Shown: positions 525 through 60,600, counted from the stretch's first letter. The stretch: 64,000 nucleotides of DNA from Antedon mediterranea (GCF_964355755.1 NC_092674.1:31682001-31746000), one strand, 5' to 3'. A program made the numbers and translations. The notes: generated from the sequence alone by a model not told the origin.

Positions 525-3500
525 GTAATGGATAATTCATTAGCAACTCTTACATACAAAGTGCTTGATTCATGAGAAATGCATAGTAGTATGCTTGACA
601 GTTTGGGATTCTATTCAAAATGCATTCATTCATTGTGATCCATTTTCACATTGTAGTACACAAGCTTCAACTCTGTCAGTTTTATTTGGTTTTTACAAGA
701 ATGATCATTTGGTAATTGTTTCTCTGTGCTTATCATTTTCCAGATTAAAGCGTATTTTAATCAGATAATTTATTCTATTTAAAAACTAAACTGTCTCAGT
801 TGATGTTTGCTTCTTCTTTAAAAATTGTGCTTTTTCTTTAGAAATGTTGGGATATGCCTAACATTTTGTCTAATATTGCTTTATTCCTTTCAGCAAAAAG
901 CCATAGATCTATTCTACAGAGATTTTCAGCGATTATCACATCCCGAACGACGCAAAGATTTTGTGTCTGAGGCATACTTACTTACCCTTGGCAAAGTCAT
1001 GAACATGTTTGCAGTGTTAGATGCTCTTAAAAACATAAAAGCCAGTATCAAGAATGATTATGCTCAATATAGAAGGTTTGAGAACATGCACACATTATGC
1101 GCTAACCATATTAAATACATCATCTCACTGTGCATGTGCATTTAATATTACACTAATAACAGTCAAATTATGCAGAGTTAGTACTATAGATTGATATTCT
1201 TATATATTCCATAAAATACTTCAAAAACCTAAACACTGTTAAAGATATATTTTCTCCCTGCAAAAATAATGAAAATAATTTTAATAACAATTCGGTATTC
1301 ACTTCCAAACAATGGATCTAAACAATTTGAGTTTTTTGTTTTGGTGTGATCATTAATCACGAAAACCCATAATCTGTAAGTCATTGGGTTTCTGGTCAAA
1401 TGGTATTGTTTTTTATTAAAATAATTTTACCGAAAGTGAATAAAAACTACAAAATGTTTTCATGTTTTTGGGGACAATACATCTTTAATTCTAATACACC
1501 AACAATTATTTCTTTTAGCATGAAAGAACTTCATTTCAGTCTTTAGTTTGTGCTACAAATATCGGCTTCTGATTTGCTATGTAGTAATATATACAAATAT
1601 TAAATCGTTAAAATGAAATTTATAATCTATTAATTATTGTTTTTTCCGATAGCTTTTTTTTAAACATTGATTTAAAATTAAAGTCAATTTGCATCTTTTT
1701 TGTTTTTGTTCTACATAATGCCTTTTACAACAAATACATATTTATCTTATCAATTTTATGTACAAGTATGTTTGAAATATATGGACAATTTATCCTTTGT
1801 TTTTGAAATGTTTGTGTCATTGTTGTCTTTTGTTTTACTCTGCTAATTCAGTTACACCCTTGATTTGCTAAATATTATTCACTGCATGTTTTTATTATTA
1901 CGATATTAATTTGAATGAAATCACGATACCATATTACCTTTTTTTTCTAGATGTTAGGTTTGTTAGAATGTACTGTATTGGTATTTTAGACAAAACAGTG
2001 CAAATCACAGTAATGTATTATGTTATACAGGGCTGCTCAATTTCTGAAGCGCATGTCCACGCCACAGTCTATCCAAGAATCGCAGAATGTGACGTTATTT
2101 TTAGCTATCAACGACAAGATTACAACGACCTTAAAGAGTAAAATACAGGAAATCCAAGGTCATGAGGAACTGTTGATTGACATTGTAAATATATGCTCTG
2201 ATATGTATGAAAACAAACAATATGTACTACCACAGGAAAAACATATGCTACTTAAGGTTAGTTTTTGGTTTTTAAAGTTTTGTATACTGACCAAAGAGAA
2301 AATGTCCAAATGATAAACCTTATTTGTTTCCTTAAGTTTTAGTCTTTGTTTTATTCATTATGGATTGTCTTCTATTTTAGGTCATGGCTTTTGCTCTTTA
2401 TCTTATGGATGGAAAAGATGTCAGTATTTACAAATTGGATGGTGGAAAGAAAAAGTTCAGTCTGTCTAAAATTGACAAGTTTTTCAAGGTATCAGAGCTT
2501 TTACATTGTTTGATTTGATTTATTTAATATCGGCTCATTACAATTACAACAGAATACATAAAAAATACAAAATGAAACAAAAAGGCCAGGATTGTCAAAA
2601 GCGAACCCAATCACTGTTTAAAGACTTTCCTTTAACAGAAATAAAATATAATATAGGCTAAATGATGGTAAAAAAAAGAAGAAAAAATGAATTAAAATAG
2701 CAAATAAACAAAACAAAATGGTTAAATAAATTAATATTTAAGACGTTATGTAAAAAAAAAAAACAGCATGGACCAGGGAAAATCAAAATAGAGGCAAGGA
2801 GAGTTGATTGTTTATCAACAAACACTAAATAGCTCATTAATGATGTATGACAGTATAGTTTATAAATCAAAAGAGAGGCAAGGAGAGTTGATTGTTTATC
2901 AACAAACACTAAATAGCTCATTAATGATGTATGACAGTATAGTTTATAAATCATTCTTTATTCAACGTATAATTGGTTATAATACAATTTTTTACGTTAA
3001 ACACAGCACTTGGAAGTTGTACCATTATATGGTGATATTCAGATTTCCCTGTAATACTATTGTTTACGTTAAACACAGCACTTGGAAGTTGTACCAATGG
3101 TGATATTCAGATTTCCCTGTAATACTATTGTTTACGTTAAACACAGCACTTGGAAGTTGTACCATTATATGGTGATATTCAGATTTCCCTGTAATACTAT
3201 TGTTTACGTTAAACACAGCACTTGGAAGTTGTACCATTATATGGTGATATTCAGATTTCCCTGTAATACTATTGTTTACGTTAAACACAGCACTTGGAAG
3301 TTGTACCATTATATGGTGATATTCAGATTTCCTTGTATTCCTACATCATGAAAAGTGAGAACTTTGAGAGCCATCGATCAGTATGGAGTGTAGATGCTAG
3401 TGGCAGTTTAAGTCATACCTCACAATACAACATAGTAGAACAATTACCTAATGTACGAGAACACCACACGAGGTACATAAGTGAATTGGCTACACACAGT

Positions 3501-57600: not shown

Positions 57601-60600
57601 TTAGATCAGCTTTAATAATACGTTGTGCAATTTTACGTGGTCTCAATATTTTTCTTATCATTTTCAGTAAAGTTACCATAAAAACATCCAATGCTAAAAG
57701 ATAAAATACTTTGAATAATACTTTAATAATACAAATGTTGTTTCTTTACAGGATACGGAACTGAATACAGGTAACTTAATATAGACTATGTCAGGGGCGG
57801 ATCTAGGATTTTGATAAAGAGGGGGCGTTTTGGCCAGTTGATTCTTGTCATATAATTATTTGAATATAGTGGGTTTTATAGACCATATTTAATAGCCTAT
57901 ACGGAACTGTTTTCCCATTTCCCACACATTTTTTACGCGATCGTTTCTTAGTTCTTTCGACGTTGCTGGGACACATGGATGTGAAGTTTTGCAAAGCCAA
58001 GGCCGGTCACGCGCATTAAATTAAATTGTTTTTATATTAAAATTTAGTTTTACTTACACTTGTTATTTTGAAATATCAGACTTTAAAAGAGTACAAAAAA
58101 CATCGTCACGTTGTAAAAAATCACAAATTGTCAGCGCGTACGTATTTTTTCACAAACAATGATGACGTAATTTATGAACTATTTGATTGGTCAGTCATTT
58201 TTTTTTCGGACTTGAAAACTTGGTTCAACTTTTAAAAAAATTAAAGATTTTAACGATTTTTAATGTTGATTTGTACCCCCTTTTCCTGTAAACTTGTTCA
58301 TAAAATCGTATGTAAATGGGTGCATAATATATATATATCTTACTAAATCCGCCCCTGCATGTTAATTTAGTTCAATTACCCGATACATAATACATTTAAA
58401 GAGAAGCTATATTTATATGATTGCAAAAAAAACTATTCTCATGTAGTGACCAACAATTTAACTAACCGTATGTTTTGGTTAGAATAAATAAAAAAGAATG
58501 TATTATTATTATACTTAGTAAATACTGAAAGTTTGCATTGTTTCTATAGAGTGGGACGACGTTAATCTTGAGCGAGAGGGAATGAAGGGTGGAGCTGATC
58601 CTCTTCTTAGCCAAGAGCCAGCCAGTGTGCTGCCCTCTTACAAGAGCCTTATGAATTCTGACTTGGTAATTTTTTTCACTTTATGTCATTCCAGTTTGTA
58701 AATAAGTAGATCTACTAGTCATGTTTAAAATCTTTGGCATTTTTTGTTAAATTAATTATTATATATTAAATACCATAATGCAAATTTTGCAACCGAGAGA
58801 CAATTATGTTTTAGTATATATTAGTAGAAAGTATAAGTATACAGTACAGTATCCAAAAGCAAATTACTGAAAAAATCAGTGGCTGAATCGCAATGGAGAT
58901 ACAAACTTAAAAATGTATTTCATTGTAAACAGTTCTAATTGTTGTGTAACCTTAAACATCAAGCTTAATGATGATGATGAAAAGAATTAATCATGGTAAT
59001 TGTAGACATATATATCAATAATATTTTTACATGACACCAATTTTATGTTAATGTGGCCTCAAAATATTTGCACTATAATAAGTATCAAGTGTGGAATATG
59101 TGGTAGTTATCTTGATATATTGGCATAAGGCAATCAATTAAATCTTGTTGTGCAAAAATCTTTTATTTTAAATTTGGCTTATGAATCTAGATTGTACTGT
59201 GAGGTTATAGATGCTTTGTATTTATTTTAGGGTCATGATTTCAGTGATGATAAACTTTTAAAATCAGGACGCTTGTACAGCTTATATTTACTGAATTCAG
59301 AACATAGCAATGAGATAGATAAAAAGACAACAAAGGAACAATGCAGTGAAACAGCTGGAAATGACGAAGCCCTATATGAAGGAATGCCATTTTATGAGAT
59401 GAAAGGAAAGGATTTTGGTTAGTACACAATTTATAGTTCTGGGATTTTGTATTTTCATTGATTTGAATATGTTGTGGAAACTATAAGTTTGTGCAGAGGC
59501 TGTAATTTCACTTTTAATTAGGGAAGCATTGATGATAAATAACTGTTTCTTTATATTAATTGTCTAGGTCCCTGTGCCTATTGTAATATGTGGAAAAGTG
59601 TACATTTCATGTCGTACTGTAGGCGCTACCCATTCTGCAGTGTGTCTTGTACAAAGAAGTTTGCAGTTTGTAAAAAGGAAAAAGGTGAATTGCAGGAGAA
59701 ATCACCAGACCACTCTCCATATGCTAAGAATCTTCAGGTATTGGTTTAAACTTTACTTAGACACACACACTCAATATGCTAAGAATCTTCAGGTATTGGT
59801 TTATACTTATAACCACTTTCTATATTCTAAGAATCTTCAGGTATTGGTTTATACTTATAACCACTTTCTATATTCTAAGAATCTTCAGGTATTGGTTTAT
59901 ACTTTACTTAGACACACACACTCAATATGCTAAAAATCTTGAGGTATTGGTTTATACTTATAACCACTTTCTATATTCTAAGAATCTTGAGGTATTGGTT
60001 TAAACTTTACTTAGACACACACACTCAATATGCTAAGAATCTTGAGGTATTGGTTTATACTTATAACCACTTTCTATATTCTAAGAATCTTGAGGTATTG
60101 GTTTATACTTTAATTATTTATTCTCTGTACTAAGTGCAAAAGACAGTATTTGCATCAGCATGATAATTTTAAGTAACATAATAATTAAAAAATTTGTCTA
60201 TAGGTACCAACATTGTTCCCTCAAGACCGTGCCAAACCGCTGTTCCCTGCTCATGAGGGTGGAAGTAAAGTGGCGGCCATTTGTAGCCAGAATGGTCTTC
60301 AAACGTTCAGTTGGACAAGGTACCTTGAATCTGAATGCTCTGAAGCTGCTCCCATTAAATGCTTCCATCATGTAAGTATACTTATGTGTAACGAAATATT
60401 AAGAAGGTTATTTTAATGTGTTATAACAATATACTACTGATCATCTACTGTACTATATATATAAAGATATTGTACATTATCAAATGGAATCTAATTAAAA
60501 AAACAGAAACAACCTATATTTATAATATGGTTTTGACTATACTGTAGGCACCAATGTTTAAGGAGTGGAAATCCTCAATGTTGAGTGCATTAATTGAAGT

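What the first reader, a model, noticed from the sequence alone, without database searches (positions are those of the whole stretch)
2991..60110. Window-wide pattern: tandem arrays whose units straddle real splice junctions
Seen: seven of roughly fifteen tandem repeats include a functional splice site plus exon sequence. These are CYFIP acceptor (72 bp x5), CYFIP donor (57 bp x16), WDR55 acceptor (42 bp x2), WDR55 donor (~66 bp x2), knottin-gene acceptor (83 bp x35), WBP4 donor (58 bp x6) and MBT-gene donor (55/48 bp x8), affecting five of nine genes. Two more arrays (5435, 46215) end within ~35 bp of an acceptor. In at least five cases using a decoy site introduces an in-frame stop almost immediately. 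Inference: either the expansion mechanism is biased to exon edges, or such arrays are merely tolerated. Either way the spliceosome must choose one site among many near-identical ones, and copy number could tune expression through NMD or seed new exons and introns.
Basis: partly seen in the sequence, partly recalled or inferred. Interest (0 to 1): 0.75.

Follow-up and report, generated by a model that had tools for sequence, protein, structure and literature searches.

The report
Feather-star splice-junction "mirage" repeats
In five neighbouring feather-star genes, short pieces spanning an exon border are copied, mostly head to tail (up to 35 times), into the intron; this repeat type is already known from lancelets and humans, the two junctions I could check against spliced transcripts use the real site, and the spare copies are likely tolerated by-products of frequent local DNA duplication.

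Summary
The arrays are real. Six of 16 tandem arrays (unit 25 bp or more) hold a splice junction; the seventh case (WDR55 donor) is a two-copy duplicate split by a 3.2-kb insertion. The CYFIP model is an exact substring of a protein that its source names Antedon mediterranea CYFIP2-like, so this is a feather star. The arrays match amphioxus "mirage" minisatellites and the human F7/CBS/LMNB2 repeats. Enrichment over random placement is about twofold and borderline (6 vs 2.9 expected, p 0.055; p 0.006-0.07 by definition; one window chosen after the fact). Spliced contigs use the exon-proximal site at both junctions checked; contigs cannot show rare decoy use. Decoy use gives a premature stop in 6 of 7 arrays. 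DNA of a related organism shares the MBT donor array, appears to lack the CYFIP acceptor array, and has a donor array that this window lacks, so such arrays come and go. I found no evidence for regulation through NMD. This scan has noted the same repeat type before in ctenophore, brachiopod, octopus and annelid DNA (unchecked notes). Verdict: new member of a known kind, modest interest.

The parts
2980..3337 (+). CYFIP acceptor mirage, 72 bp x5; acceptors at 3007, 3079, 3147, 3219 (decoys) and 3291 (real)
   Evidence: spliced contig X5 uses 3291
9248..10220 (+). CYFIP donor mirage, 57 bp x17; real donor 9285, 15 downstream decoys, one inverted unit at about 9866-9931
   Evidence: not checked against reads
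12359..12446 (-). WDR55 last-exon acceptor duplicate, 42 bp x2; real 12380, decoy 12422 (in frame, +14 aa)
   Evidence: not checked against reads
12938..13003 (-). Displaced copy of the WDR55 exon-6 donor (32 exon-like bases plus intron part; decoy donor 12972), inferred second unit of a 61-bp duplication
16195..16243 (-). Real WDR55 exon-6 donor (16212), separated from its copy by a 3.2-kb insertion
39275..42180 (+). Acceptor mirage of the cysteine-repeat (knottin-like) gene, 83 bp x35; real acceptor 42140, 34 decoys
   Evidence: not checked against reads
51950..52298 (-). WBP4 donor array, 58 bp x6, only 5 exonic bases; real donor 52294
   Evidence: not checked against reads
59709..60110 (+). 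MBT-gene donor mirage, 55/48 bp x8; real donor 59737, 7 decoys (4 with GAG|GT)
   Evidence: spliced contigs X5 and X9 use 59737; array unitigs in X1 and X6
60302..60383 (+). Single copy in this window; an 89-bp donor mirage (70 exon + 19 intron bases, donor 60371) in DNA run X6 of organism B
   Evidence: table 5c and record 13 (119 letters, depth 167.6 vs 44-50)

Best explanation
These are mirage-type minisatellites: 42-83-bp pieces spanning an exon-intron border, copied 2 to 35 times into the intron, likely started by local tandem duplication and likely tolerated because splicing would take the site nearest the exon, as seen at the two junctions checked. Shown: unit anatomy; no shared family among the 13 units compared; open reading frames through the exon-proximal site (first donor, last acceptor); premature stops for decoys in 6 of 7 arrays; exon-proximal splicing in contigs at 2 of 7; one array shared with and one private to a related organism. 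Inferred: (1) a first duplication by slippage or break repair at short shared ends; (2) growth by unequal exchange of multi-unit blocks; (3) exon-defined or 5'-to-3' scanning site choice makes the extra sites nearly silent, and NMD would clear leaks; (4) because this DNA is rich in arrays (15% of the window) and junctions (170 in 55 kb collapsed), about half of the straddling arrays are expected by chance alone.
For: TRF arrays total 9,633 of 64,000 bases; among 13 unit sequences only 2 pairs share a single 10-mer. 10 of 16 arrays hold no junction. The CYFIP model through acceptor 3291 and donor 9285 is an exact substring of P0003. X5 record 10 leaves 108 letters between the pieces 2029-2254 and 3289-3504, the length of exon 2381-2488, so no unit is included. 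X5 and X9 both skip 466 bases GT..AG from the first MBT donor. Decoys score equal or nearly equal to the real sites, and the most distal decoy would leave an ordinary 83-518-base intron (window median 206), so position, not strength, likely decides. The 83-mer variant string has recurring blocks (DCAEAB twice, CAEAB three times). Short shared ends of 2, 4 and 6 bases are read from the edges of the 72-, 42- and 84-bp arrays. Same behaviour reported for amphioxus mirages (PMC3087553 passages; PMC3902484 passages) and human F7 and LMNB2 (PMC1557585 abstract and passages).
Against: Straddling arrays are about twice the random expectation under every definition tried (p 0.006-0.07), and organism B has an extra donor array within the 1.5 kb examined at fine scale; pure chance placement may be too weak an account. 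Only 2 of 7 junctions were checked against RNA-like contigs, from animals other than the assembled one; the X5 animal may lack the CYFIP acceptor array; contigs drop rare forms. In human 6-16 and CBS some pseudo-sites are used (PMC1557585). No measurement of splicing mode or NMD in crinoids was made.
Confidence: 0.65

Rival explanations
1. Tandem duplications arise or survive preferentially at exon edges in this lineage (for example breaks or slippage where GC content and nucleosome occupancy change at exon borders). This can hold alongside tolerance at the splicing step.
For: 6 of 16 vs 2.95 expected (p 0.055); 7 of 17 vs 3.15 with the split WDR55 donor (p 0.023); 6 of 13 vs 2.34 after merging two arrays and dropping two inside dispersed repeats (p 0.018). 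5 of 170 junction 30-mers have a copy within 200 bases vs 102 of 8,117 non-exonic 30-mers (2.9% vs 1.3%, same arrays, not independent). Extra donor array in organism B.
Against: One window, chosen because it showed the pattern; with periods from 20 bp it is 6 of 19 vs 3.11, p 0.072. With a 4-kb radius, junction 30-mers (5 of 170, 2.9%) are duplicated less often than non-exonic ones (396 of 8,117, 4.9%). Proximity of non-straddling arrays is at chance (p 0.37). No whole genome was available.
Confidence: 0.25
2. The arrays are regulatory: copy number sets the share of transcripts spliced at decoy sites and lost to NMD.
For: Decoys give premature stops in 6 of 7 arrays; the MBT array is shared with organism B; pseudo-site use is reported for human 6-16 and CBS (PMC1557585).
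Against: Stops follow from reading AT-rich intron; no decoy joint was listed (weak, contigs drop rare forms); arrays are gained and lost between close relatives; the genes are unrelated; decoy exon parts carry their own substitutions.
Confidence: 0.07
3. The arrays are assembly artefacts.
For: Copy numbers could not be measured from contigs; four of the six tandem arrays were not checked against reads.
Against: X1 contigs hold MBT unit-to-unit junctions at 99+% likeness, and X6 of another organism holds the same array. The X1 contig through the CYFIP exon begins at 3303, 30 bases before the letter (3333) that separates exon from decoys, as a 31-mer graph does at a repeat. X1 may be the assembly's own sample. 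Units carry structured variants.
Confidence: 0.03

Closest known systems
Amphioxus 'mirage' minisatellites (Adh3; globins BflGb6, BflGb9; troponin C; PGBD5). Seen: passages of PMC3087553 and PMC3902484; the original Adh3 paper was not held
   Same: Tandem units span exon-intron borders, at donors and acceptors; unit sizes overlap (10-160 bp there, 42-83 here); several genes of one genome; regular splicing reported; homogenised units
   Different: Here an echinoderm; five of nine adjacent genes; up to 35 copies; gain and loss seen between two related organisms; allelic or somatic length change not tested
Human junction-spanning VNTRs: F7 IVS7 37 bp, CBS IVS13, 6-16, LMNB2, PDGF (PMC1557585: abstract, outline and passages)
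   Same: First unit holds the real donor, identical pseudo-donors follow, the most upstream is used; F7 has only 4 exonic bases, like WBP4 here (5)
   Different: The human cases listed there are donor-side, single loci in long-intron genes; here three arrays are acceptor-side and introns are short (median 206)
Intron gain by tandem genomic duplication (Rogers model, as described in PMC3087553 passages; PMC4974935 seen in a search listing only)
   Same: Local duplication that copies splice signals
   Different: No new intron is formed here: the arrays lengthen introns that have their own unique sequence and opposite splice site

Membership tests
Mirage minisatellite | Tandem unit spans an exon-intron border and repeats the splice signal | tested here: met
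   6 tandem arrays with 5-47 exonic bases; decoy GT/AG intact
Mirage minisatellite | Minisatellite-size unit, donor or acceptor side | tested here: met
   42-83 bp; 3 acceptor and 3 donor tandem arrays; reported range 10-160 bp
Mirage minisatellite | Regular splicing is kept | tested here: inconclusive
   Exon-proximal site used at 2 of 7 junctions, the only ones checked; contigs hide rare forms, other animals
Mirage minisatellite | Length instability between alleles or cells | tested here: inconclusive
   Presence differs between organisms A and B; allelic and somatic copy number not measurable from contigs
Mirage minisatellite | Homogenised units with repeat turnover | tested here: met
   83-mer: 34 units, 5 variants in recurring blocks; TRF match 82-99% across the six arrays
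Intron gain by tandem duplication | The duplication itself creates a new intron | tested here: not met
   Using the most distal decoy still leaves 83-518 bases of intron; organism B has intron sequence at CYFIP 3275-3290 without sign of the array
NMD-coupled regulatory splicing | Decoy isoforms made and regulated | not testable with these tools
   Only contigs were offered, no raw RNA reads

The most novel reading that the evidence does not exclude
Feather stars have a genome-wide bias that makes tandem duplications at exon edges about twice as often as chance, and these arrays turn over between sister species. Thousands of natural arrays of identical splice sites in short-intron genes would then show strict exon-proximal site choice, and give a direct test of exon definition and of mirage-driven intron or exon gain in an invertebrate.
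Probability: 0.25. Interest if true: 0.6.

Novelty: new member of a known kind. Interest (0 to 1): 0.3.

Why it matters
The repeat type is described, so a crinoid example mainly extends its range; eight paper searches (judged from titles and abstract starts) listed no echinoderm case and no genome-wide test of junction enrichment. If the twofold excess holds genome-wide it points to a mutational or retention bias at exon borders. Acceptor-side arrays of up to 35 equal sites in short-intron genes are a ready test of how the spliceosome picks a site. The arrays can also mislead gene prediction and read mapping.

Tried and rejected
No whole genome is held, so the genome-wide shuffle could not be run. 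The repeat finder on the window was swamped by the 83-mer and gave nothing further. No run is on record as RNA ('no RNA holder listed'); X5 and X9 are treated as RNA-like only because their contigs skip GT..AG introns. In one search the joint table was filled by high-copy dispersed repeats (196 rows not shown), so splicing was read from the piece table. Lack of cover at 2991-3289 in X6/X7 is not used alone. X6 and X7 contigs end at the same places near donors 2488 and 8239, which may mark further arrays in organism B; not shown, not counted. My first MBT model had a wrong 19-base exon (57752-57770); the X5 loose end showed the real exon ends at 58665 and the test was rerun with the same result. 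I first took the gene at 26676-28035 for a DOMON gene; Pfam gives beta-thymosin. Rejected: proximity of the 5435 and 46299 arrays to acceptors (chance); a shared mobile repeat family; cassette exons (each unit copies one real splice site only). Three look-ups of two papers were not held. PMC10078293 passages concern other mechanisms. No supplements were read; those of PMC3087553 hold unit alignments and may bear on the comparison.

Full report
Setting. The window is AT-rich animal DNA (GC 28-38%). I built exon models for nine genes; all read open: CYFIP, WDR55, aspartylglucosaminidase-like, a beta-thymosin-like gene, two DOMON-like genes (weak Pfam hit for one, none for the other exon tested), a secreted cysteine-repeat gene, WBP4 and an MBT-repeat gene (Pfam on 16 single exons or ORFs, 12 with a hit; WBP4 is named from its U1 zinc finger and WW hits plus recall). 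One CYFIP exon matched one protein at 100% among 6 candidates, named Antedon mediterranea CYFIP2-like X1 by its source, and my 1126-residue model is an exact substring of it. The animal is therefore that feather star or a very close relative. The models give 93 exons, 84 introns (median 206 bases) and 170 junctions.

Observation. TRF lists 36 rows; leaving out coding low-complexity repeats and periods under 20, 19 arrays remain, 16 with period 25 or more, together 9,633 bases for the 19. Six contain a junction: CYFIP acceptor 72 x5, CYFIP donor 57 x17, WDR55 acceptor 42 x2, cysteine-repeat gene acceptor 83 x35, WBP4 donor 58 x6, MBT donor 55/48 x8, with 47, 38, 22, 41, 5 and 29 exonic bases. 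The seventh case is a copy of the WDR55 exon-6 end and donor 3.2 kb into the intron; the flanks fit a 61-bp unit duplicated once and then split by an insertion (inference). In every case the open frame runs through the site nearest the unique exon: first donor, last acceptor. Decoy use gives a premature stop in 6 of 7 arrays; the WDR55 acceptor decoy adds 14 residues in frame (19 decoy sites were translated, not all).

Is it more than chance? I collapsed each array to one unit (55,384 bases) and placed units of the same length at random outside fully exonic positions. Period 25 or more: 6 of 16 vs 2.95 expected, p 0.055; with the split donor 7 of 17 vs 3.15, p 0.023; merging two adjacent arrays and dropping two that lie in dispersed repeats 6 of 13 vs 2.34, p 0.018 (p 0.006 with the split donor); asking for 10 bases on each side (WBP4 drops out) 5 of 16 vs 2.19, p 0.052. 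With periods from 20 bp, 6 of 19 vs 3.11, p 0.072 (before one MBT exon was corrected). So the excess is about twofold and borderline, in a window picked for showing it. The two arrays that end 33 and 27 bases from an acceptor are at chance (2 of 9 vs 1.27, p 0.37). A junction-centred search found no further hidden copies: 5 of 170 junction 30-mers have a local copy (WBP4 and the WDR55 donor fall outside its mismatch limit), against 1.3% of non-exonic 30-mers within 200 bases and 4.9% within 4 kb.

Public runs. 24 runs were listed, none on record as RNA, all as contigs; I laid 5 of them on two stretches. On 300-9240: X5 (organism A, another sample) behaves as spliced RNA; its record 10 has exactly 108 letters between the pieces 2029-2254 and 3289-3504, the length of exon 2381-2488, so it joins to the last acceptor with no unit included. 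That animal may not carry the array. X1 (DNA, possibly the assembly's own sample) has a unique contig that starts at 3303, 30 bases before position 3333, where the real exon (T) differs from the decoys (C), as expected at a repeat. X6 and X7 (organism B, DNA about 95% alike) each have one contig across 3275-3864 with 20 further letters upstream, at ordinary depth (42.9, 178), so the array appears absent there; X5, X6 and X7 read C at 3333, the state kept in the decoys. On 59215-60745: X5 and X9 (organism B, spliced) both skip 466 bases GT..AG from the first MBT donor; 3 of 3 RNA-type joints in each run match the model. X1 holds unit-to-unit contigs at 99+% likeness. X6 holds the same array (59707-59759, depth 283 and 180 against about 50), with loose ends that continue into the next unit and share a decoy-specific letter with the window's copies, so the array likely predates the split. 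X6 also has a 119-letter contig that goes back from 60383 to 60302 (period 89, depth 167.6): a donor array at the next exon that this window lacks. X9 splices there at the first donor. Contigs drop rare variants, so low-level decoy use is not excluded. The 57-, 42-, 83- and 58-bp arrays were not checked against reads.

Mechanism. The units do not form a family (2 of 78 pairs share one 10-mer); each derives from its own locus. Short shared ends at several array edges (2, 4, 6 bases) fit slippage or microhomology repair as a first step (inferred). Recurring variant blocks in the 83-mer fit later unequal exchange (inferred). One 57-bp unit is inverted and would pair with a neighbour over 55 bases in RNA (-121.5 kcal/mol, z -17.5), which suggests a template switch. 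Decoys score the same as the real sites or within about 1.5 bits, and the farthest decoy would leave a normal intron of 83-518 bases. Position therefore likely decides: exon definition (recalled) or the 5'-to-3' scanning shown for F7 donors (PMC1557585 abstract) predicts the first donor; exon definition also predicts the last acceptor. Selection would remove arrays that mis-splice often, so the survivors are expected to look silent.

Prior art. Tandem repeats spanning exon-intron borders were named mirages in amphioxus Adh3 and found in globins, troponin C and PGBD5, with regular splicing and length instability (PMC3087553 passages; PMC3902484 passages). Human F7, CBS, 6-16, LMNB2 and PDGF carry donor-spanning VNTRs; in two of them nearby pseudo-sites are used (PMC1557585 passages). 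The Adh3 paper and Gao and Lynch 2009 were not held and are known to me only through these passages. Eight searches listed no echinoderm case or genome-wide enrichment test, judged from listings only. Earlier notes of this scan report the same type in ctenophore, brachiopod, octopus, annelid and shark DNA and a whole-exon minisatellite in this genome; they are unchecked AI notes and are not used as support.

Verdict. A real cluster of mirage-type minisatellites in a crinoid, likely tolerated. What is added: a new phylum for the class as far as my searches reach, acceptor arrays of up to 35 copies, and direct signs of gain and loss between close relatives. Junction bias stays open (about 0.25); regulation is unsupported. 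Interest 0.3.

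Noticed in passing
window 343-524 and 894-1075 (+): CYFIP has two homologous 182-base exons used alternatively: stored isoform X1 (P0003) holds the second and X2 (P0004) the first, 21 residues differ.
   Followed up: yes
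window about 9866-9931: One inverted unit inside the CYFIP 57-bp donor array; it is complementary to every unit, including the one with the real donor, and folds as a 55-bp hairpin with a neighbour. It could mask a donor in pre-mRNA.
   Followed up: partly
window 37050-47681 (+): Secreted 613-residue protein: Ser/Gly-rich start, then 18 phase-0 exons each coding one six-cysteine knottin-like module. Of two exons scanned, one gave a weak Toxin_29 match below the cut-off (E 0.0013). Function not studied.
   Followed up: partly
window about 13017-16194: 3.2-kb insertion between the two WDR55 donor copies, by eye two related segments of about 1.5 kb in tandem; probably a non-autonomous transposon.
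   Followed up: no
window 20614 (-) and 24418 (+): Two predicted GC-AG introns (WDR55 intron 1, aspartylglucosaminidase intron 4) needed for open frames; not checked against RNA.
   Followed up: no
window 60302-60383, run X6: 89-bp donor array present in organism B and absent from this window.
   Followed up: partly
window 21581-21652 (-): tRNA-Glu(TTC) gene between WDR55 and the asparaginase-like gene.
   Followed up: no
window 26676-28035 (-): Three-exon gene with a beta-thymosin match (E 2.9e-06).
   Followed up: no
window 5831-6460, 1457-1488, about 7740-7810: Very high-copy dispersed repeats (depth up to 4e5 in X1 against 60); a related inverted copy of the first is visible by eye near 23090-23560.
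   Followed up: no
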